Positions 5,990 through 57,392 of a stretch of 64,000 nt of DNA are shown piece by piece. Below the pieces are notes generated by a model that made no database searches, was not told where the DNA came from, and worked only from the letters and a program-made list of their open reading frames with translations. The DNA lies in the NCBI RefSeq assembly GCF_028641065.1, contig NC_073379.1, forward strand, positions 112,592,001-112,656,000. Reading direction: 5' to 3'. The DNA comes from Leucoraja erinacea. Taxonomy: Eukaryota. The position numbers and the translations under genes were made by a program. The stretch's first letter is position 1. Every line of letters begins with the position of its first letter.

Positions 5990-7134
5990 CTCTAACCATA
6001 AACAAAGCCCTGGCTCACATCCCAGAGGGATACCAACCAACCATTTTGAGCAACATCAATATCAGGGCTGGTAAAAAGACAATCCTCTGGAAAAGTTTCA
6101 TTGACTTGGAGAGGTAGCTGTTCCAGAAAAATGCTTGGTGCATGCTCCTGTCATAATCAAGCTGAGAAAAGAACACAGGAATTCATGGCAAAAATCCTGA
6201 TCTAGGCACTGGCACCCAACACATATCTGCATTAAAAGTGCAATGATATGCAGTAATAACGGTCAGACTGGCTATTGCCCAATCTACTGATATTTCTATA
6301 AGCCTGGTCGCAGAACAATGGTAGAAACACAATAATACTGAAGGTCTTGTTCCTGCAAAGAGAGCACTTCATGGTATGGCCCCAGTTCCCCTGTGTACTC
6401 CAAGTTGAAGCTTCAGATGGAACACAGCGATTGATAAAGTTGTCATTAAAATCCAGACTGACATTGGGTTTGTGCAAATCCATAACTCATGGAGAAAATG
6501 GGTGATTGCCAGACTGGGGGTTGGCACAATTGGAATATGAGCGTTTGATCAACAAAGCTAAACATTAGTTTAATCAGTAGTGTAATCAGTATAAGTCATT
6601 ATAGCTACTTCTCACCTACAACTCAGTTTACTTATAATTGCTTTTATCAGATATACAAAGCTATTTTCTATTTAGATAGGGACAGGCCTGTGAATTATTA
6701 TTTTAATAATCACAATATCTTTTAATGTACTTTTTTTTTAACTTGCATTAAAAAGCTCCCCCCTTCCTCAAAGCCCTCCTGCAATTTACAGCAATTCCTG
6801 ATGGTGCTTACTTCATCATGCCCAGCTTTGTGAGAGATAACTGCTTCAGCACAATACTTTTAAAACTACTTCAATAGATCACAGAATTGAGTCTTCCAGA
6901 ATGGGATTTATGCAAATACGCAGAATACAGGGAGTACACTGAAGCAACCAGAAATAAAGCAGAAACAAGGCAATTTTACAAATATATACATATGCATTAA
7001 TGCATTATACATATGCATTAAAGTCTCGAATATAAGAACTAGAACCAGGGTTTTACCATAGGCATTCCTCATGCTTGCACTGGTATTTAATAAGCATACC
7101 TCTTCTGAGAGAGGTGGCTTTAGAGATTGTAACG

Positions 7135-7970
7135 GTATTAGTGGTGATATTTCAAAATTGCTGGAGTCAGCAGTGGTCCCAGAGGACTGGAAAATTGGAA
7201 ATATTACTCTGCTGTTCAAGAAGGAAGCGAAGCAAAAGTGGAGAAACTATAGACTGTTTGGCCTGACTTCAGTGGTTGGTAAGATCTTAGAGGCCATTAT
7301 TAAGGATGTGTTTTCCGAGTACATGATGGTACATCAGGCACATGATAAATTAGGCCAAAGTCAGCATGGTTTTCTGAAGGGGAGATCTTCCCAGACAAAT
7401 CTGCTGGAATTCTTTGAGGAAGACAGTAGCAGGATAGACAAAGGAGAGTCAGTTGACGTTGTTTACCTGGCTTTTCAGAAGGCCTTTGATAAGGTGCTGC
7501 TAGTGGGGCTGCTAAAAAAGATGAGAGCCCATGGTATTAGAGGGAAGGTAATAGCATGGATTGAAGGTTGGCAGAATGGCAAAAAGCGAAGCGTGAGAAT
7601 AAAGGGGGCTTTTTCTAGTTGGCTGCCAGTGACCAGTGGTGTTTTGCAGGGGTCAGTGTTGGGGCCGCTACTCTTCAGGTTGTATATCAATAATTTGGAT
7701 GATGGAATTGATGGCTTTGTGGGTAGGTTTGCACATGATAGGAAGATAGGCGGAGTGGGTAGTGTAGAGGAAGCAGGGAGTCTGCAGAAGGACTTGTGCG
7801 GTCATGCACTTTGGTAGTAGACGGCTGGGTCAGAGGCGGACTGGGTCTAAAAATATTGGTTGCCAGGAGACAAAGGGGGCCCACTTCATCAGGGTCCCAC
7901 TTGCCATCGGGCAAGCTGACACCCTGGCCAGTCCGCCACTGATAGGACTATTTTCTAAATGGAGAATCAG
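7135..7970 (+). mobile_element. CR1 LINE RT fragment
   Basis: VPEDWK, NYRL, SQHGFLKGRS, DVVYLAFQKAFDKV, SGVLQGSVLGPLLF motifs. Confidence 0.9.
7831..7941. mobile_element. hAT-like MITE (about 111 bp) inside the CR1 fragment
   Basis: Terminal inverted repeats CAGAGGCGGACTGG (7831-7844) and CCAGTCCGCCACTG (7928-7941); no clear 8-bp TSD. Confidence 0.6.
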
Positions 7971-8833: not shown

Positions 8834-10845
8834 TTGTGTCATGTTCGCGGCACTCGCCTGAAAAACCGGGAACTGGAACGGCGACTGTCAGAGTGGAACA
8901 CACACACACACACACACGTCACAGTGGAACACACACACACACACACACACACGTCACAGTGGAACACACACACACACACGTCAGAGTGGAACACACACAC
9001 ACAAAGTCAGAGTGGAACANNNNNNNNNNNNNNNNNNNNNNNNNNNNNNNNNNNNNNNNNNNNNNNNNNNNNNNNNNNNNNNNNNNNNNNNNNNNNNNNN
9101 NNNNNNNNNNNNNNNNNNNNNNNNNNNNNNNNNNNNNNNNNNNNNNNNNNNNCACACACACACACAGTCAGAGTGGAACACGCACACACACACGTCAGAG
9201 TGGAACACACACACACACACACACGTCATACACACAGATATACACCACATAGACACAGACACACGTCATACACACAGATATACACCACACACACACACAC
9301 ACACGTCATACACACAGATATACACCACACACACTCAGACACACGTCATACACACAGATAAACACCAAACACACACACACACACGTCAAGTGGAACACAC
9401 ACACACACACACAGTCAGAGTGGAACACGCACACACGTCAGAGTGGAACACACACACACACGTCAGAGTGGAACGCACACACACATCAGAGTGGAACACG
9501 CACACACACGTCAGAGTGGAACACGCACACACACACACACACGTCATACACACAGATATACACCACATAGACACAGACACACGTCATACACACAGATATA
9601 CACCACACACACACACACACACGTCAGAGTGGACACACACACACACACGTCAAGTGGAACACACACACACACACGTCAGAGTGGAACACACACACACACA
9701 CACACACGTCAGTGGAACACACACACGTCAGAGTGGAACACACACACACGTCAGAGTGGAACACACACACACACACGTCAGGGTGGAACACACACACACG
9801 TCAAGTGGAACACGCACACACATACGTCAGAGTGTGAACACACACACACGTCAGAGACGGGAACACAGTGCACACACACACGTCAGAGTGGAACACGGGG
9901 GGGGGGGGGGGGGAGTGGAACACGCACACACACACACACACACACGTCAGAGTGGAACACGCACACACACACACGTCAGAGTGGAACAGACACACACACA
10001 CACACAAGGTCAGAGTGGAACACACACACACACACACACACGTCAGAGTGGAACACACACACACACACACACGTCAGAGTGGAACACACACACACGTCAA
10101 GTGGGAACACGCGACACACACACGTCAGAGTGGAACACGCACACACGTCAGAGTGGAACACACACACACACACGTCAGAGTGGAACACACACACACACGT
10201 CAGAGTGGAACGCACACACACACTCAGAGTGGAACACGCACACACGTCAGAGTGGAACACACACACACACGTCAGAGTGGAACGCACACACACATCAGAG
10301 GTGGTGGACACACACGACACGTCAGAGTGGAACACGACACACACACACGTCAGGAGTGGAACAGCACACAAACGTCAGAGTGGAACACGCACACACACAC
10401 ACACACCACAAAGGCCAGGGAGCGCTGTCTGAAATTCACACGGTGCAAAACCAAGATGATACAGACACACACCGCGTTGAACAGGAGGTTAAGACGGCTA
10501 GCACAGTGTACGGTAAATCCTTTAAAGAGGGGGGGGGGGGGGAGCCGCATGCGTGGCGGGGGAGACCCTGGAGACACTTTTAAGAAGCCAGACAACTTTT
10601 AATAAACCAGAGATACACAGCTGTGAAGGTTGGTGGGCATTTTTTGGTCGCAGAAAAATTTTGTGCATGTTGAAAAAATTGTGGCGGCCATACTGAGGCT
10701 AGTTCCCAGTTCCCCAGAATGCGGGAATTCCTCGCGACCATGAAGGAGACTCACTAGAGACCACCAGCGAATATGTGGCGACCATGTGGCGATCATGAGG
10801 CCAGCGCAGACTTTTCTTCACTCGCCTAAGTGGGACAGGCCCTTT
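8834..10845. mobile_element. Non-autonomous DNA element, PIF/Harbinger-like, with internal satellite
   Basis: Right end AAGTGGGACAGGCCCT followed by TTAA, compatible with a TWA target; left terminus not found. Confidence 0.5.
8885..10410. repeat. Compound satellite (GTCAGAGTGGAA(CA)n) with interspersed GTCATACACACAGATATACAC units; contains N gap 9020-9152
   Basis: Directly visible tandem units with variable CA length. Confidence 0.95.
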
Positions 10846-29569: not shown

Positions 29570-32420
29570 ACCTATGGAATTAAAATAGAAAATGCTGGAT
29601 AAATTCAACAGGTCAAGCAGCATCTGTGGAAAGAGACAATGTTTCAGATCAAAGACCTTCCATCAGAACTTGGAGAGAAAAACAAACTAGTTTTAAGTTA
29701 TAAAGAAATGGGTATGATGTATGGATAAAACAAAAATAGTATTTCTGACTAGGTCATGCCAAGGTTGTAGAGGTCTTCCCCATCAATGCTTTAATGGAGA
29801 TATTTTGAGAATGATAACACAAAGGTGTTGCAAAATACAGGATAACGGATACACACCCAGCAGATCAGACTATGCAAACGGAGAACAAAAATCTGAGCCA
29901 ATGTCACAAATGGATGACGGAGCAGAAGTGGCCAGTTCTGATGAAGAGAGAGAGTGAGTTATCTTATGTTGTAGAATTTAATATTGAGTTCAAAGGCTGC
30001 ATCAGGCCCAGATGGAAGATGTTCCTCAAGCTCTTGTTGGTCCTTGTTATAAAAGTGCAAGATGCCACAGAAAAAGCAGTCAGGGAGAGAGTGGAATGGA
30101 TAATTGAAGTGTTTCTGGGCGAGCTCTCAGACACACCCTTATATTCCTCCACTGACCAAAAAGCCATCGTTTGCTTAACTGTCATGGACCTCATTTCTTA
30201 TGGGAATCTTCCCACAATAGCTTCCAACTCTTACTCTTCCAGCTGACAAACTTCATGTTTACCCCTCCTCCACAAGCACCAGTGTCCAGGCAGGACCAAT
30301 GTTCGCTCTCCTTTAGCCCAATGGAACTCATTTCTTCTTGCCTTGACTCCATCATTTCTCCCCAGCTCCAGTCCTTTTTTACTAACATTCATGATGCCCC
30401 GGGTGCCTTCCACCACTTTGACGGTTTTCATTTGCCTGGTTCCAAGCAGATCATCTATTCCATTTATAGGTAATCCCTCTCTACCTCCATCCACAATCAC
30501 AATAGACTGCTGCCCTTTGGTTTCTCCCTTGAAAAATGGCCCAACTAGTTCTTCTCCATCCTCATTGATTGAATTAATTCTCGCATTCAACAAATTCTCC
30601 TTCACCTCCACTGATTTTGTCCAAATCAAAGGTGTAACTAGGGGAACTCATATGGCACCAAGCCGCACCTGTCTTTTTGTGGGATTTATGTGTTTCATCT
30701 GGGCCTGAGCTCTCTCCTTCAAGTCTTTTTCAGCTTCATAGATGAATGCATTAGTGCTGCTTTGTGCATTGGAATAGAAAAATATACCAATAATCATTTT
30801 CTGAACTTAATTATATTCTCCCCTAATACTCTCCCCTTAATTCCATTCTCCTGGACAATCTCTGACCCTTCCCTCCTATTTCTAGATCTTCCTGCCTTCC
30901 TGTCAGATGGCTAGCCACAAAATCTGTCACCTGATTCTACCATGACCATATTTCCTCCCACTTTGCCTCCATTCTCCTAGTTTCTCCGTCTCTGCAGAAT
31001 TTGTTCCAAACAGGCTCCTCAGTGCTGTCTTCTTTCTTTCCAAACTGTGGCTTCCCATTTTTAATGAATCATCTTTTTAAATTTCTGCCAGCTTTAACAA
31101 GATTCCACCACCAGACACATATTTCCCTCCCCTTCCCCTCTCAGTATGTTGAAAGGATGATTTCCCCCCCCCCCCCCCAGTGACATATTTATCACCACTA
31201 ACTCCTCGCCTTCTCACAGCTTTCCTGTGCAACTGCAGCAGATGCAAAACCTGCTTCACTTCAGCCTTCCAATCATCCAGGAGCCCAAACAGTCGCACTC
31301 GGTAAAAGCATTGTTTCACTTTAGTTCTTTTAGTCTGGTGCACTGCATTCAGTGTTCATAATATGTTCTTCATTACCTTGAATAAACCAAATACAAGAAT
31401 GGGTGAATACTTTGTGTGGCATCTATGTTCAGTCCAAGAGATGTTCCTGACCTAATTATCAAGTCAAGTCAAGTTTATTTGTCACATACACATACGAGAT
31501 GTGCAGTGAAATGAAAGTGGCAATGCTCGCGGACTTTTGTGCAAAAGACAAACAACCAAACAAACTATAAACGCAATCATAACACACATATTATTTTACA
31601 TAATAAATAATGGAATGAAAAATGTTCAGTAGAGTTCAGTAGAGCTGCCTTGCCTTACTCACGAGTGCTGATATGCCATGTCATATCCTCGGAGATGTGG
31701 ACTCCCAGAAATTTAAAACAGTTCACCCTATCCACAGGATCCCCATTTATCCTCAATGGAGTGTACGTCCTTGGATGATGTGCCCTCCTAAAGTCCATGA
31801 TCAGCTCCTTCGTTTTTTTGATGTTCAAGAGGAGGCTGTTCTCCTGGCACCAGAGTGCTAGATCAGCCACCTCCTCCCGGTAGGCCTTCTCGTCGTTGTC
31901 TAAGATCAGGCCCACCACCACAGTGTCATCAGCAAACTTAATTACTGAGTTGGAGCTGAACCTAGCCACACAGTCATGTGTGTACAGGGAGTAGAATAGG
32001 GGGCTGAGGACGCAACCCTAGGGCGATCCTGTGCTCAGGGTGAGGGATTTCGATGTATTCCCTCCCATCTTGACTACCTGGGGCCTGGCGGTGAAAAAGT
32101 CCAGGACCCAGGCACACAGGGAGGTGTTGAGCCCCAATTCCATTAGCTTCTCGGCCAGTCTGGTGGGGACTATCGTGTTGAAGGCTGAACTGTAGTCTAT
32201 GAACAGCATCCTCACGTAGCCCCCCTTCTGGCTGTCCAGATGGGAGAGAGCGGTGTGCAAGACCTGGGAGACCGCATCATTCCAACCTTTTCTCACTTTG
32301 ATCATGTGCCTGTGGCCTCCAACAGTGCTATAATGAGGCACAACAAACGTTCAAGGAACAGCACCTCATCTTTCATCAGGTCATGTTGCAACGCTCTGGA
32401 CTACAACTTTAGGTAACGGG
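29570..32420 (+). mobile_element. Degraded Penelope-like element (RT and GIY-YIG remnants) with an inverted upstream segment, interrupted by a Rex1 insertion
   Basis: FNKFSFTSTDFVQIKGVTRGTHMAPSRTCLFVG (PLE RT); CxxC and GIY-YIG-like remnants at 31200-31440; EEQHLIF-like terminus resumes at 32281-32420; opposite-orientation sequence at 29570-30170. Confidence 0.75.
31459..32280 (-). mobile_element. Rex1/Babar LINE fragment with internal deletion and (GACTT)n tail
   Basis: [10 protein letters not shown]...[18 protein letters not shown] and KFADDTVVVGLI; same family as 56353-57092 but lacking about 400 bp near 31645. Confidence 0.92.
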
Positions 32421-34269
32421 CTTTCTCTGAATGTATCAGACCCAGCCATTTCTACCGTATGTCATCCATCTATGACATTTGACTTTTTTGGTCTCCCAAA
32501 CCCAGAAAACTAGCATTGTCATCTTTACTCAATTAAATCAAACAACCAAGTCTAGATTAATCAAACATAATGTACTGGAGTAGCTCAGCAAGTCAGGTGG
32601 CGACTGTGGAGGGAGTGAATAGGGGCAATTTTGCTTTGGAAAGCTCCCTCAGACTCTGAGGAAGGGTCCCAACCTGAAACGTCCCTATCCATTTTCTCAA
32701 GAGATGCTGCCTGGCCCGATGAGTTATTCCAGTATTTTGTATTCCGCTGAAGATTCCAACATCAGCAGATTCCAACATCAGCAGATTTAATCTTCACATC
32801 ATGATGTAAATAATCACAGGATACAATTACCGAGGCACTGAAGACTACAGGGGTTTTACAACATGCTAAATACAGGGGCTGCGGAGCTTGTTTGAAAGTG
32901 GTGGGGCAGAGTGATCACTGATCACCGTCCTCGGGGGTTCCCGGAGAGCGTGTAAAGCGACTGAGCGGTGGCAGGGGGACACGGTAGGGACGTTTTAAAA
33001 TTTGATGTATTAAAATCATGTTTTAGAGCATTGTAAAAGTATGATTGAAATGTTTTTTGTTTGAAGGATTTTTACGATAATGTAGGGCCGACATGAGAGG
33101 TAGGAGCAGGTGATTATTATTTTTGACCCGAAACGATACGTCACCCATTCATTTTCTCCAGAGATGCTGCCTCACTGACTTACTCCAGCATTTTGTGTCT
33201 ATCTCCCCTATTGCCTTGCCCTTCCTCCCAGACTTTTACATGGTTTTCCCCTTCAGTGCTAGGCCCAGCCCTCTTTGTGAAAGGTCTCCTGAAGTGTTGT
33301 CTCTCCACTCTCTGCCGTTGCCACTGGTGTGATCACCCGCAGTCCATGTTGTACATCTCTTGGAACAACTTCTCCTTGTTTGTCCCACCACAGGATTGTG
33401 AACATGCTCTCAGTCTCCTAGTCCCCTCACCTGCAACGTAAATAGCCCGAGAGTCTACACAATACTGAGACCTTTCATTCATGCTCACCCATTCTGGCTT
33501 CCCTACAAACTCTTGACATCCTTCCAGATGTGAAACCAGAGCAGACCCTGGAATCTATCTGGAGTTAGCCTGTGTTTGGCATGGCAGCTCAGTGTTTTTT
33601 TCGTTCCTGATTCCTCTGAAAATGGGAGCAGGAAGGTTGGGTTGTTCAGCAGCGTTCTCCATTAGTCCGTCCCCTTGACCTCGTGCCCTCAGACTCCGGG
33701 CCCCTCACCCCGTTGCTCGCTTCCACCAGCTCCGTGTGTGAGTGTGGGAAGCTTCCACTCTCTCTCCCTCCACCCACCCCCCTTCACGTTCACCGGCCCG
33801 CCAGCCCGCCTCAACCGCGGTGAGTTGCTGACACTCCCTCCTCCAGGTGAGTTACAGGTGAGGTTGGTGCTTCCTGCAGACACTGAACCATCCCGTCGCT
33901 GGGCTGGCCGCTAATTCCCGGGGGAAATATTGCTAACAAAGTGGATTGGCTGCAGCCCATGAAATATATCAGATCCGAGAGACCACCAAGTATTAGTCCC
34001 CTAGTCTGATGGTAATGATGGAATTAGGAACCTGCAAGCTATAAACTGACATTGTGGGGTGAAAAATACGGTGTTGCTGCTGATGGATTATAGAGGGGGC
34101 CCAGACAATAAAGAGGGACCATTGGGGAGTTTAATGAATACTTTGTAACTTTGTTGACGCCCAATACGTGGTGACTCTTTGCACACCTTGAGGATCGTAT
34201 GCAAAACAAATGATTTTACCGCGACATGTCACATGTGATGATAAAATATCAATCAATTCATCAATTCTG

Positions 34270-36210: not shown

Positions 36211-38190
36211 TTGGGTTCTAAATTTTGCAAAAAAGTCTATTGTTTTAAAATGCTTGCAAAAATTTATGGTTTCAAGCATGTAGAAAAAACTCTATTGTTT
36301 CTAAAGCTTGCAAAAAATGGTCTATTGGTTCTAAAGCTTGCAAAATATGTATATTGGTTCTAAAATGCTTGCAAAAAAGGTGTCTATTGGTTCCAAAGCT
36401 TGCAAAAAAATGTCTATTGGTTCTAAAGCTTGCAAAAAGTATTCTATTGGTTCTAAAGCTTGCAAAAACATGTCTATTGGTTCTAAAGCTTGCAAAAAAT
36501 GTCTCTATTGGTTCTAAAGCTTGCAAAAAGTGTCTATTGGTTCTAAAGCTTGCAAAAAGTGTCTATTGGTTCTAAAGCTTGCAAAAAATGTATATTGGTT
36601 CTAAAGCTTGCAAAAAAATGTCTATTAGGTTCTAAAGTAGGCCATTCGTTCGAGCCTGCAAAATATGATCATGGATGTCTATCGGTTCCTAAAATGTTCT
36701 GCTCCCTCTTAAAAAATGTCTCTTTTGAGACAGTCTATAATGCTTGCAGAAAAGTTGTCTCATCTCGGTTTTAAAGGTTCTAAAATCCAAAAAAACATGG
36801 GAACAATTTTCCTATTGGTTCTAAAATTAAGCTTGCAAAAAGTGTCTCATTCTCCTAAATTTTAGAGCTAAAACCAAGTCTGCAAAGACAGTCCTGACAT
36901 CCCAGGAATCAGTTTGGTGAACCTTCTACAAATAATGTCCTTCCAGATTTGGAGACCAAAACTGTACGCAATACTCCAGGTGTGGTCTCACCAAGACCCT
37001 GTACAACTGCAGTAGAACCTCCCTGCTCCTATACTCAAACCCTTTTGCAATGAAATCTAACATACCATTCGCTTTCTTTACTGCATGCTGCACCTGCTGC
37101 TTACCTTCAATGACTTGTACCATGACAAAAATGTATATTGGTTCTAAAAGCTTTTCCCGCAAAAAATGTAACTCACATTTATCCACATTATACTGCATCT
37201 GCCAAAGCTTGCCTAAAAAACCTTGCAGTCTCCTAGTCTACAGCTAACACTGCCCCCCAGCTTAGTGTCTCCGCAAAGCTTGCTTTCAAAAGAAAATGTC
37301 TATTGTAAATAGCTGGGGTTGAGGCTTGCGGTAACTAGCACTGCCTGCCATTGTGAAAAGGACCCGTTTACTCCTACTGCTTCCTGTTTGCCAGTTCTAA
37401 ATCAATACTGCTTGCAAAATGTTTGCATACTAATCTCTTATGTGGTGTCGAAAGCCTTCTGAAAGCAATAGGTGGCTAGAGGGAGGACTATAAAAGACCC
37501 CTTTCGTAAATCCATGTGTTTGTCTAACCTTATTTTTGAATCACAGTCTCTTCAAGATGGAGGAAGGCAGAGGGTTACACGTTTCTCTGAGCTTGAAAGA
37601 TGAACTAACACATGTCTGGACTCAAATACTGAGTGCCCTTAGTAGTTTCAATTTAAAACTGCTTGCAAAAGTGTCCCCTATTGGTTCTCCTTAAAATTAA
37701 ACCAAAGTTTGCAAAAATGATCAAACTCATCTGTTTCTATTGGTTCTAAAATGCTTGCAAAATAGTGTTGCTCAGTTTTTATGTTCCCAGCCAGTTTTCT
37801 TTCAAATCTGCTTGCAGAATGTGTCTTTCTTGGTACTCCCACAATGTTTGCAAACGCATCATCCTTCGCTGTCTCTTTTGGTTATACAATGCTTGCAGAA
37901 TGTGGGATGAACTTTTTTTGGTTCTAAAAATGTCTTCCATTGCATGCTTTCAAAAATGTCTATTGGTTCTAAAGCATGCAGAAAAATGTCTATTGGTTCT
38001 AAAGCTTGCAAAAAAAATGTCTATTGGTTCTAAAGCTTGCAAAAAATGTCTATTATTGGTTCTAAAGCTTGCAAAAAAAAAGACTATTGGTTCTAAAGCC
38101 TGCAAAATAATGTCTATTGGTTCTAAAGCTTGCAAAAAAATGTTTATTTGTTCTAAAATGCTTGCAGATAGCATTTCTATTGGTTCTAAA
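36210..38190. repeat. About 30-bp minisatellite (CTATTGGTTCTAAAGCTTGCAAAAAATGT); clean at 36210-36640 and 37950-38190, scrambled with CR1 sequence in between
   Basis: Directly visible tandem units; CR1 motifs ([13 protein letters not shown], minus strand) interleaved in the middle. Confidence 0.9.
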
Positions 38191-38389
38191 GTGTGTGCGT
38201 GTGTGTCGTCTGTCTGTGCGTGCGTATGTACGAGTGTCTGTGGATGAGTGTGTGAGTGTCTGTGTATGAGTGTGTGTGTGTGTGTATATGTGTGTGAGTG
38301 TTTGACTGTGTCTCTGTGTATGAGTGTCTGAGTGTGTGTCTGCGTGAGTGTCGGAGTATCTAGTGTGTGTGTGTGTCTGTGTGTGTGAA

Positions 38390-39770: not shown

Positions 39771-40672
39771 AAACCTGCTCCATTTATGGCCCGACACAGT
39801 AACACAATTATTTGCACAGAATTTCAAAACTGCAAAAATGTCCTTACGTAAAAGTCATGGAATTTGTTATCTACATGGTAGGTTTCCAAGTTTCAATTCA
39901 GTTTTAATTTGAATTCAAATTGAACCACATAGCATTTTGCCCATGAGCAGCTGCTAGCTTTATCTCAAATTGGAGAAAATCTGCATATTTTTGGCCAATA
40001 AGTCTTCAGGAGGAGGACAAAAATTTTAATAAGATGCACGTTAATTTTATCAATGAACCACCAAATAATTTTGAAAATCCACATGCACATCTATGGTGCT
40101 GTTGCATTAATATCCATTGTTTTTCTTAAAAGAGCCCATGCTGATGTTAATTAACCCATGTCTTCTAATACAGCACGTTAGATTGCATTAAGTCTTCGAG
40201 TGGGAATATCAAATACTAGAGTATACAGTTTTAAGGCGAGAGTGGGAAAGCTAAGAGGGTCCATTTTTTTTTAACTACACAGAGAATGGTAGGTACCTGG
40301 AAACAATGCCAGGCATGGTGGTGGAAGCAGATACAATGGTGGCATTTAAGAGGCTTTTAGATGGGGGCACATGGATTTGCAGGCAATGGAGTGATATGGA
40401 TCACATGCAGGTAGAGGAGATTAGTTTAATTTGGCATCATGTTCCATACAGACATGGTAGGCCAAAAGCCTTTTTCTGTGCTGCACTGTTCTATGTTCTA
40501 TGACTGAACTACTAGAATTAAATTAGCCATTCCATTGCATTCATTTGACTGGGATTGTTGTTCTGGTACAGCATTGGTAGTAAACTTGATCAGAGGGTCA
40601 AGCCTGAGTTCAGTTAAATACTTAATGGTAGGCAAATCTGAATGGAGCTGCTAACTTCTACCCCGCTATATG

Positions 40673-41200
40673 CAGAGCTGCCTACTCTCACGCATTGAGC
40701 GTGAGACTCACGCATTTAGCATTTCGACAAATTCTCACGCTCTCACGCTGATCACAAATTTCTCAGGCTCTGTCGTGAGAAATTGTGTGATCAACGAGAA
40801 TTTCAAAACTAATATCAACTGCATGGGCCGTGGGTGTTGGAGAGCCGGGGCTGAGGGAGGGATGGAAGCGGAAGCAGCGGTGGGGGCAGATACGGACGGG
40901 GAGCCGGGGCTGGCGAGTGTTTGCCGAGCTGGCAAGTCGCTCGCTGCAGCTCCGGCCATGGAGCAGCCTCAGTGCAAGAGTCCCGGGGTGTCGGAAGCAT
41001 TGCGCCGATGCCGTGAGAGTCTCTGTGCCGAATTCGCCCAAGTGACCGGCATGGACCAGGTGCGGCTCGGTGCATCCTGTAGGACAACCAGTGGCTGCTG
41101 GAAGTAAGTACCAAGCACAGGGTAAAAGCGGTGGAAGATAGTGGCCGTTAAATGGGGGTGGTTGGAGAAAGCATCCTGCTTGCCTGATAGATTTTCACTC
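40673..41200 (+). mobile_element. Non-autonomous DNA element with hairpin-rich terminus carrying a host-gene fragment
   Basis: Terminus CAGAGCTGCCTACTCTCACGCATTGAGCGTGAG, near-identical to CAGGGCCGCCAACTCTCACGCTTTGAGCGTGAG at 48520; internal inverted repeat tgatcacaaatttctca...tgagaaattgtgtgatca. Confidence 0.6.
40958..41109 (+). pseudogene. TDP2: Disrupted TDP2 exon-1-like fragment (N-terminal UBA-like domain) with splice donor
   Basis: GCCATGG, then RRCRESLCAEFAQVTGMDQ, a 1-nt frameshift, ARCIL*DNQWLLE|GTAAGT; resembles recalled TDP2 RRLLCVEFASVASCDAAVAQCFLAENDWEME. Confidence 0.7.
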
Positions 41201-41209
41201 TTACTGTAA

Positions 41210-41535
41210 CTGCAGGAAAAATGTTCCCGATGTTGGGTGACCGGGGGTCACACAATTTAAGAATAAGGGGTAGGGCATTTAGGATAGAGATGAGGGCAAA
41301 CTTTCTTCACCCAGAGAGTTGTGAATCTGTGGAATTCTCTGCCACAGAAGGCAGTGCAGGCCAATTCACTGGATGTTTTCAAGAGAGAGTTACATTTAGA
41401 TCTTGCGGCTAGCGAAATCAAGGTATATTGGGAAAAAACAGGAAAGAGGTACTGATTTTAGATGAACAGCCATGATCATATTGTATGAGTGCTGGCTCGA
41501 AGGGCCGAATGGCCTATTTCTGCACCTACTTTCAA
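41210..41535 (+). mobile_element. CR1 3' fragment
   Basis: MFPMLG, cagagagttgtgaatctgtggaattctctgccacag and the CR1 3' UTR. Confidence 0.85.
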
Positions 41536-41749
41536 TGCTTGACTATGGGGGCAATAAAACTCAACCACTTGATTTTGAAACAAGCATGGTGAGGGTATAA
41601 TGTAGTCATATAGAAACAAACAATTGCAGTTGCTGATTAATACACAAAAGAACACAGAACGCTGGAGTAACCCAGCAGGCCAGGCAGCTTCTCTGGAGAA
41701 CATGGATAGATGACATTTCGGGTCGAGATCCTTCTTCAGACTCTGTCTG

Positions 41750-48519: not shown

Positions 48520-48557
48520 CAGGGCCGCCAACTCTCACGCTTTGAGCGTGAGACTCA
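48520..48557 (+). mobile_element. Isolated terminus of the element family at 40673, abutting a CR1 tail
   Basis: CAGGGCCGCCAACTCTCACGCTTTGAGCGTGAGACTCA. Confidence 0.65.
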
Positions 48558-49067
48558 CATAGAAACATAGAAATTAGGTGCAGGAGTAGGCCATTCGGCC
48601 CTTCGAGCCTGCACCGCCATTCAATATGATCATGGCTGATCATCCAGCTCAGTATCCCGTACCTGCCTTCTCCCCATACCCCCTGATCCCCTTAGCCACA
48701 AGGGCCACATCTAACTCCCTCTTAAATATAGCCAATGAACTGGCCTCGACTACCCTCTGTGGCAGAGAGTTCCAGAGATTCACCACTCTCTGTGTGAAAA
48801 AAGTTCTTCTCATCTCGGTTTTAAAGGATTTCCCCCTTATCCTTAAGCTGTAACCCCTTGTCCTGGACTTCCCCAACATCGGGAGCAATCTTCCTGCATC
48901 TAGCCTGTCCAACCCCTTAAGAATTTAGTAAGTTTCTATAAGATCCCCTCTCAATCTCCTAAATTCTAGAGAGTATAAACCAAGTCTATCCAGTCTTTCT
49001 TCATAAGACAGTCCTGACATCCTAGGAATCAGTCTGGTGAACCTTCACTGTACTCCCTCTATGGCAA
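48558..49067 (-). mobile_element. CR1 3' end (same family as 5014-5989)
   Basis: DRLDAGRLLPMLGKSRTRG...; catagaaa tail. Confidence 0.93.
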
Positions 49068-56352: not shown

Positions 56353-57092
56353 AGTCAAGTCAAGTCAAGTCAAGTTTATTCGTCACATACACATACAAGA
56401 TGTGCAGTGAAATGAAAGTGGCAATGCTCGCGGACTTTGTGCAAAAAGACAAACAAACAAACAACCAAACAAACTATAAACACAATCATAAACACACACA
56501 TATTCTTTTACATATTAAATATTGTGGGTGGAAGGAAAAACGTTCAGTAATGTCAGTCCCTGGTGAGATAGGCGTTTACAGTCCGAATGGCCTCTGGGAA
56601 GAAACTCTTTCTCAACCTCTCCGTTCTCACAGCATGGCAACAGAGGCGTTTGCCTGACCGTAGCAGCTGGAACAGTCCATTGCAGGGGTAGAAGGGGTCT
56701 CCCATGATTTTATTGGCTCTGGAGTTACACCTCCTGGTGTATAGTTCCTGCAGGGGGGGGGCGAGTGAAGTTCCCATAGTGCGTTCGGCCGAACGCACTA
56801 CTCTCTGCAGAGTCTTCTTGTCCTGGGCAGAGCAATTCCCAAACCAGATGGTAATATATCCGGACAAGATGCTTTCCACAGCCGCTGAGTAGAAGCACTG
56901 GTGGATCCTCGGAGACACTCTGAATTTCCTCAATTGCCTGAGGTGGTAAAGGCGCTGCCTTGCCTTACTCACCAGTGCTGAGGTGTGTGATGCCCATGTC
57001 ATATCCTCGGAGATGTGGACTCCTAGATATTTAAAACAGTTCACCCTATCCACAGTATCCCCATTTATACTCAATGGTGTGTACGTCCTCGG
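56353..57092 (-). mobile_element. Rex1/Babar LINE 3' end with (GACTT)n tail
   Basis: Open frame FKYLGVHISEDMTW...KARQRLYHLRQLRK...SFFPEAIR. Confidence 0.93.
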
Positions 57093-57392
57093 TAGACACG
57101 ATAGACACGAATGCTGGAGTAACTCAGCGGGTCGGGCAGCATCTCTGGGGAAAATGGATGGGTAACGTTTCAGGTCAGCTACCTTCCTCACCCCCATATC
57201 TAATTGGCATTTAACAATGGGCAATAAACGCTGTCCTTAAATTCCACTGATGGAGAAACAATGGATTACTTCCACAAAATGATCCTTAAAGTATGAAAAA
57301 CTAAAAAAAGGTAAGAGAGATAACCAGGAAAATGGAGAGATGGTAAACAAATGAATTACATAAAATCACACTGTATTTCACATCTTGATCAT

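What the first reader, a model, noticed from the sequence alone, without database searches (positions are those of the whole stretch)
40673..41200. Apparent transposon capture of TDP2 exon 1 with Kozak ATG and splice donor
Seen: after a hairpin-rich terminus (40673; second copy at 48520) there is CpG-rich sequence with GGAAGCGGAAG, an in-frame upstream ATG at 40862, GCCATGG at 40958, and a 146-nt exon-like stretch ending GAA|GTAAGT (41104). One 1-nt deletion near 41060 and one CAG-to-TAG change (41080-41082) would restore LCAEFAQVTGMDQxAARCILQDNQWLLE. Knowledge (recalled): this resembles the N-terminal UBA-like domain of TDP2, whose first exon ends at the equivalent W-x-x-E. Inference: the retained donor and intron-like tail indicate DNA-level capture by a Pack-type DNA element rather than retrotransposition. 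TDP2 removes 5'-phosphotyrosyl protein-DNA adducts, so an element spreading its promoter and first exon could donate promoters or create antisense/small-RNA cross-talk with the real gene.
Basis: partly seen in the sequence, partly recalled or inferred. Interest (0 to 1): 0.72.

Follow-up and report, generated by a model that had tools for sequence, protein, structure and literature searches.

The report
Skate transposon spreading TDP2 first exon
A jumping DNA element in a skate genome carries the start of the DNA-repair gene TDP2 and has copied it to more than a thousand places, which is far more than reported for gene capture by this kind of element in animals, but the copy here is broken and the copies are likely inert passengers.

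Summary
Confirmed, with corrections. Window 40673-41613 is the left part of a non-coding terminal-inverted-repeat (TIR) DNA transposon carrying the 5' end of TDP2. From 40829 it aligns in order to the real gene (G000:C2): 5' leader, exon 1, donor and intron 1 with its resident repeat fragments, so capture was at DNA level. An exon-end motif occurs 1,167 times, gene included. 35 of 40 exon copies have the left TIR; 25 of 26 complete copies have target-site duplications, mostly 6-7 bp. Corrections: the stop is GAG>TAG; capture starts only 33 nt before the first ATG, so little upstream promoter came along; GGAAGCGGAAG is not in TDP2. The cargo decays neutrally (dN/dS about 0.95 in 13 copies picked by their ends) and its CpGs mutate about five times faster. 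RNA reads of a related species run through the donor unspliced. This copy lacks its right end. No transposase partner was found; superfamily open. It is a Pack-TIR of unusual copy number; bat Helitrons give a precedent for the anatomy. This scan has already reported the same family on other DNA of this genome and in other genomes.

The parts
40673..40685 (+). Left 13-bp terminal inverted repeat (two differences from the family's common form)
   Evidence: Sharp 5' boundary across 30 aligned loci; exact inverse found at right ends of complete copies
40686..40770 (+). Subterminal left arm with short repeated motifs in both orientations; shared with family members that carry no TDP2
   Evidence: L122 842-934 aligns to 40672-40770
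40746..40796 (.). Fold-back hairpin between the shared arm and the captured piece
   Evidence: DNA fold of 40673-40800, z -4.65
40829..41103 (+). Captured TDP2 5' leader and exon 1 (ATG 40862, ATG 40958; 1-nt loss at 41060; GAG>TAG at 41080-41082); encodes the N-terminal part of the UBA-like domain in intact copies
   Evidence: 110 of 126 aligned bases identical to the gene before the second ATG, 135 of 146 in the exon
41104..41613 (+). Captured TDP2 splice donor and intron 1, cut off at 41613 in this copy (no right end, no target-site duplication)
   Evidence: 403 of 472 aligned bases identical to the gene's intron; no further element sequence downstream in the window
41211..41547 (-). Interspersed-repeat fragment that sits at the same place in the real TDP2 intron 1 and was captured with it
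   Evidence: Matches other dispersed copies in the window and is colinear in the TDP2 intron
48520..48558 (+). Second left-end stub of the same family, followed by an unrelated repeat; no TDP2 cargo

Best explanation
This is a truncated copy of a non-coding TIR DNA transposon that carries about 1 kb of the TDP2 5' end and was likely spread by a transposase supplied in trans, with the gene piece likely riding along as a neutral, silenced passenger. Shown: TIRs, target-site duplications, colinearity with the gene including intron and intron repeats, more than a thousand copies on many chromosomes, neutral decay of the reading frame. Inferred: the capture happened once, by template switching during repair or replication of a transposon copy, which stitched the left arm to TDP2 and then to at least one more donor (the right end of a different DNA element plus about 1.5 kb of non-TDP2 DNA) before returning to the right arm; a short duplication at the TDP2 3' junction fits this. 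The mosaic then amplified as subfamily A (about 3 kb; this copy) and a derived subfamily B (internal deletion, duplicated left part, GA-rich array, shared frameshift). Inferred: copies are methylated in the germ line and appear in RNA mainly by read-through from host transcripts.
For: Colinear match to G000:C2:37570548-37569498 (-) through exon, donor and intron. 1,167 motif matches, control 0. Left TIR within 560 nt in 35 of 40 exon-selected copies, TIR or subterminal arm in 37 of 40. Of 34 TDP2-bearing left/right pairs, 8 were set aside because the locus ended inside subfamily B; of the other 26, 18 have exact duplications (5 bp 1, 6 bp 7, 7 bp 9, 8 bp 1), 7 have one mismatch, 1 none; mismatched-flank control 1 and 16 of 1,122. 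In 13 copies picked by their ends, non-CpG divergence is 0.029/0.026/0.030 at codon positions 1/2/3 and 0.032 in the intron, dN/dS about 0.95, 3 stops, CpG sites 0.153; 24 of all 49 copies are out of frame. RNA depth is flat across the donor (about 32, 33, 32 in three bins) and no joint is listed for the raw-read run.
Against: No autonomous element with these ends was found in 15 P-like and 50 hAT loci examined, so the mobilizer is unshown. Across all 49 copies dN/dS is 0.64, but most were picked by likeness to the exon or protein, which favours intact copies. The neutral estimate rests on 33 changes in 13 copies, out of more than 1,100. The donor GT is kept in 26 of 26 bases of the end-picked copies (too few to test). 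The RNA run is from another species, 6% read, and 262 loose ends were not displayed. Methylation is inferred from CpG decay only. The second donor locus was not found. Template switching is inferred, not shown.
Confidence: 0.8

Rival explanations
1. The copies act as mobile promoter/first-exon cassettes: some start transcripts and splice the UBA-like exon onto host exons.
For: CpG-rich leader, two ATGs and a consensus donor are carried; 25 of 49 copies keep the frame; element reads exist in a polyA library; bat Helitrons with the same anatomy contribute splice sites to transcripts (PMC4224331, passages).
Against: Capture starts 33 nt before the first ATG; CpG decay five times background and neutral coding change; no depth drop at the donor; this copy has a frameshift and a stop, and no host exon was seen in 150 of 171 stop-free stretches scanned in the window (short exons would be missed).
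Confidence: 0.1
2. The copies regulate the real TDP2 in trans, by antisense or small RNAs made from more than a thousand near-copies of its first exon.
For: Copies are a median 92% identical to the gene over exon core and intron start; in run X21 the element has 12-35x depth while TDP2 exon 2 had none.
Against: No small-RNA data laid; library strandedness unknown; run is from another species and exon 2 was laid at 90% likeness; read-through or DNA carry-over explains the reads as well.
Confidence: 0.07
3. The unit is a small TDP2-carrying transposon nested in a second transposon that does the moving (reading of earlier scan notes), or it was spread by a Helitron or by retrotransposition.
For: The piece after the TDP2 cargo is the right end of a different DNA element, which also stands alone in the window at 32873-33080; subfamily B has two left ends.
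Against: In subfamily A a single left TIR and the far right TIR share the target-site duplication; the outer left part of subfamily B is itself a copy of left arm plus TDP2 5' piece; no matching left end of the second element and no duplication around an inner unit were seen. Duplications of 5-8 bp with TIRs and a retained intron argue against Helitron or RNA routes.
Confidence: 0.08

Closest known systems
Multicopy animal Pack-TIRs: Pack-hAT-N8_XT (CAPSL 5' UTR, Xenopus) and Ssk-FB4 (Drosophila); Tan et al. 2021, PMC8277862 (abstract, sections 7, 9, 14, passages and one supplement search read)
   Same: Host 5' gene sequence between the TIRs of a non-autonomous DNA transposon, re-transposed with distinct target-site duplications; parental gene on record.
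   Different: Those have three to four copies; this has more than 1,100. Their pipeline demanded 90% identity and a unique best hit, so it would tend to miss a family like this. Skates were not found in its text or supplement (elephant shark had 0). Ssk-FB4 makes a protein; this cargo decays neutrally.
HelibatN3 and other bat Helitrons with captured 5' gene ends; PMC4224331 (passages read)
   Same: 5' UTR, first exon and part of first intron of a host gene amplified to about a thousand copies in a vertebrate; 5' ends favoured.
   Different: Rolling-circle elements, whereas this one has TIRs and 5-8 bp duplications; the bat elements include promoter sequence, this one holds little upstream of the ATG.
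hAT5/hAT6/hAT7 groups of hAT (PMC12730594, passages) and P-superfamily elements such as Galileo (PMC4168063, passages)
   Same: Short TIRs; non-8-bp duplications (5, 6 or 7 bp for those hAT groups; 7-8 bp for Galileo).
   Different: This family mixes 6 and 7 bp; no transposase was tied to its ends, so it cannot be assigned. Likeness of the TIR to Blackjack-lineage hAT ends is recalled, not tested.

Membership tests
Pack-TIR (Tan et al. 2021) | Internal host sequence flanked by both termini of one TIR element | tested here: met
   26 complete TDP2-bearing copies with both ends; the window copy itself has only the left end
Pack-TIR (Tan et al. 2021) | Identifiable parental locus not itself flanked by the element | tested here: met
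   TDP2 at G000:C2; no hit of the element's arms in 40 kb around exon 1
Pack-TIR (Tan et al. 2021) | DNA-level, not retro, duplication (intron kept) | tested here: met
   Donor and up to about 740 nt of intron 1 colinear with the gene
Pack-TIR (multicopy type) | Distinct target-site duplications at separate insertions | tested here: met
   25 of 26 (18 exact), control 1 of 1,122 exact
Canonical hAT | 8-bp target-site duplication | tested here: not met
   Exact duplications: 16 of 18 are 6 or 7 bp, one 8, one 5
hAT (including hAT5/6/7) | hAT transposase within matching ends | tested here: inconclusive
   None in 30 + 20 loci around PF05699 hits, out of 150 listed and 1,468 candidates; one nearby hit was an older remnant into which the element had inserted
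P superfamily | THAP/P transposase within matching ends | tested here: not met
   15 P-like loci examined have a different terminus; the family's left-end motif lies inside their first intron. Other P families were not excluded
Helitron | No TIRs and no target-site duplication | tested here: not met
   TIRs and 5-8 bp duplications present
Functional exapted promoter/exon | Transcription start or splicing at the copy; purifying selection | tested here: inconclusive
   Neutral in 13 end-picked copies; no splicing seen in one shallow run of another species; rare exapted copies cannot be excluded

The most novel reading that the evidence does not exclude
A skate TIR family acts as a collector of gene starts: it carries several CpG-rich cargoes between the same ends, and its more than 1,100 TDP2 exon-1 copies yield more RNA than the gene itself, enough to draw small-RNA silencing onto a DNA-repair gene or to seed new first exons.
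Probability: 0.1. Interest if true: 0.8.

Novelty: new variant of a known kind. Interest (0 to 1): 0.45.

Why it matters
It shows that cut-and-paste elements in a vertebrate can amplify a captured gene start to Helitron-like numbers, so the reported rarity of multicopy animal Pack-TIRs may partly reflect search filters and species sampling. More than a thousand copies of one known exon, with the source gene at hand, make a ready test set for whether captured first exons get exapted or trigger silencing of their parent. Practically, TDP2 exon 1 is a repeat in skates: read mapping, primers, probes and gene models there are confounded. No function is shown.

Tried and rejected
Autonomous partner: P-like transposase loci (15 examined) have other ends; hAT loci (50 examined) show no matching ends; long left/right pairs on C1 were separate copies or held LINE pieces, not a transposase. 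Source of the 1.5-kb middle part and of the non-TDP2 cargo: only element copies among the 40 best hits (891 and 714 candidates); Pfam named none of 71 stop-free stretches at a useful level. Host gene in the window: 150 of 171 stop-free stretches of 72 aa or more gave only two RT pieces and one ALKBH8_N hit. Sequencing runs: no RNA holder listed; small-share rows not used as evidence; contigs X1, X6, X7, X12 are only guessed to be RNA. One X7 piece reaches about 80 nt upstream of the capture junction, a hint that the TDP2 transcript starts outside the captured part, too weak to count. Literature: no paper held TDP2+transposon+skate, TDP2+captured+non-autonomous+transposon or transposable elements+Leucoraja+DNA transposon+captured; on duplication lengths returned nothing; one search gave a listing with no obvious report of this element (titles and abstract starts only). 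PMC3942097 and PMC12905397 passages did not settle the superfamily. Repbase/Dfam could not be searched, so the element may be catalogued there. The ETS-like motif was rejected as TDP2-derived.

Full report
Observation. The left end folds better than shuffles (z -4.65). A DNA search of the window's genome with 40940-41130 gave 2,374 first-look candidates, of which the 40 scored were 90-94% identical apart from the window itself. A 34-nt motif at the exon end matches 1,167 places with up to one mismatch, the gene included, and its reversed control none.

Identity of the cargo. Intact copies hit Pfam UBA_4 (2 of 3 above cut-off) and the TDP2 UBA chain 6q00_B. The homologue search returned two proteins named TDP2 from skates and one unnamed read-through product. 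The real gene lies at G000:C2:37548389-37570402 on the minus strand. The window aligns to it in order from 40829 to 41613: 110 of 126 aligned bases before the second ATG, 135 of 146 in the exon, 403 of 472 in the intron. Longer copies continue to C2:37569498, about 1 kb in all. Repeat fragments in the intron stand at the same places in gene and element. This is DNA-level capture. Corrections: the stop is GAG>TAG (38 of 40 copies have GAG), and GGAAGCGGAAG is absent from the gene and present in 5 of 40 copies. The stretch from ATG 40862 matches the longer N-terminus of the Rhinoraja protein P0003, so it is likely the ancestral start; capture begins 33 nt before it. The element shares two residues with P0003 where this genome's TDP2 differs, and several with this genome's TDP2 where P0003 differs, which suggests capture inside the skates, before those two changes.

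Anatomy of the element. The 5' boundary is sharp at 40673. Complete copies end in the inverse 13-mer. Exact end patterns occur 633 (left) and 892 (right) times, including members without TDP2. The left TIR lies within 560 nt of the donor in 35 of 40 exon-picked copies, TIR or subterminal arm in 37 of 40. Of 34 TDP2-bearing pairs of ends, 8 were set aside because the fetched locus stopped at the inner left end of subfamily B; 18 of the other 26 have exact target-site duplications (one of 5, seven of 6, nine of 7, one of 8 bp), 7 have one mismatch, 1 has none; mismatched flanks gave 1 and 16 of 1,122. Subfamily A (about 3 kb; the window's exon length type) runs left arm, TDP2, the right end of a different DNA element, about 1.5 kb of non-TDP2 DNA, right arm. 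Subfamily B lacks the middle, has a duplicated left arm with a partial second TDP2 piece and a GA-rich array, and shares a 155-nt frameshifted exon. The window copy stops at 41613 with no right end further on, so it likely cannot move. The stub at 48520 is a bare left end.

How it likely works. Mobility by cut-and-paste transposition is supported by TIRs, distinct duplications and dispersal. The enzyme is unknown: 15 P-like loci have a different terminus and 50 hAT loci showed no matching ends. The mixed 6-7 bp duplication fails the 8-bp rule of canonical hAT; hAT5/6/7 and P-type elements have such lengths (PMC12730594, PMC4168063, passages), so the superfamily is open. Capture by template switching is inferred from the mosaic of donors, the short duplication at the TDP2 3' junction and the lack of element arms near the gene; it follows the gap-filling and FoSTeST models of Tan et al. 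(PMC8277862, sections 7 and 9).

Does the cargo do anything? In 13 copies picked by their ends, non-CpG divergence from the majority is the same at all codon positions and in the intron (0.026-0.032), dN/dS is about 0.95 with 3 stops, and CpG sites diverge at 0.153. All 49 copies give 0.64, but most were picked by likeness to the exon; 24 of 49 are out of frame. This fits a neutral passenger that is likely methylated. One raw polyA run of a related organism (X21, about 6% read) laid 200 reads along the element, TIR side included, with flat depth across the donor and no listed joint; 262 loose ends were not shown. On the real gene the same run had no depth at exon 2 at 90% likeness. So element-like RNA exists and looks unspliced; read-through or DNA carry-over explains it, strand cannot be told, and rare exapted copies are not excluded.

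Comparison with what is known. It meets the Pack-TIR features tested. Tan et al. found four multicopy cases in reference genomes, the example having three derived copies, but required 90% identity and a unique best hit, which would tend to drop a family like this; the elephant shark had none and skates were not found in text or supplements. Bat HelibatN3 amplified the NUBPL promoter, 5' UTR, first exon and part of intron 1 to a thousand copies (PMC4224331, passages), so the anatomy and scale have a vertebrate precedent by another mechanism. Three paper searches found no report of this element; Repbase and Dfam were not searchable.

Earlier scan notes. The same family was noted before in this genome (e1-9816630, e1-9903594) and in others (e1-9913780, e1-9105354, e1-9215088). 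They agree on capture and scale and are not independent support. Their nested-transposon wording is only partly borne out here: a foreign element end is inside, but the unit that moves in subfamily A runs from the single left TIR to the far right TIR.

Verdict. A real, well-supported, high-copy Pack-TIR carrying the TDP2 5' end; this copy is broken; function not shown and likely none. New variant of a known kind, interest 0.45.

Noticed in passing
L094, L104, L105, L093, L108, L109, L122 (G000:C1): The same TIRs, with 6-bp duplications where both true ends were seen, flank other CpG-rich interiors without TDP2; one has a CRE-like motif, an ATG and a possible donor (714 candidates). May be further captured gene starts; source not found, no Pfam name.
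   Followed up: partly
G000:C2:37570598-37570547 (L043): A small insert of about 50 bp with ends like those of the genome's P-like elements and an imperfect 8-bp duplication sits in the TDP2 leader almost exactly at the capture junction; contigs of organism G lack it. The spot may be a repeated insertion target.
   Followed up: partly
G000:C2:37570497-37570402 (L043): In this assembly the upstream TDP2 ATG is 95 nt before the second ATG, out of frame, whereas it is in frame in the window copy and in Rhinoraja P0003: a real loss of the N-terminal extension or an assembly error in a GCG run.
   Followed up: partly
L129-L134, L149, L150, L154 (G000 C956, C154, C1087 and others): Multi-copy P-like (THAP) transposase genes with 772-773 aa open frames and an intron-split THAP domain, 94-99% alike, on several unplaced contigs; possibly recent or active.
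   Followed up: partly
window 32873-33080 (-): Free-standing copy of the foreign DNA-element right end that also lies inside the TDP2 element.
   Followed up: partly
L221-L226: A recent multi-copy hAT family (96-98% identical, up to about 3.5 kb shared), with ends not matching the TDP2 element's.
   Followed up: no
window 36214-36637 and 37952-38191; 8898-10403: Two 30-bp tandem arrays of one unit 1.3 kb apart, and a long AC-rich minisatellite with a fixed spacer.
   Followed up: no
window 56556-57236 (-); 7062-7814 (+); 31658-32017 (-): ALKBH8_N Pfam hit (likely a retroelement-associated piece; recalled, not tested) and two reverse-transcriptase fragments.
   Followed up: no
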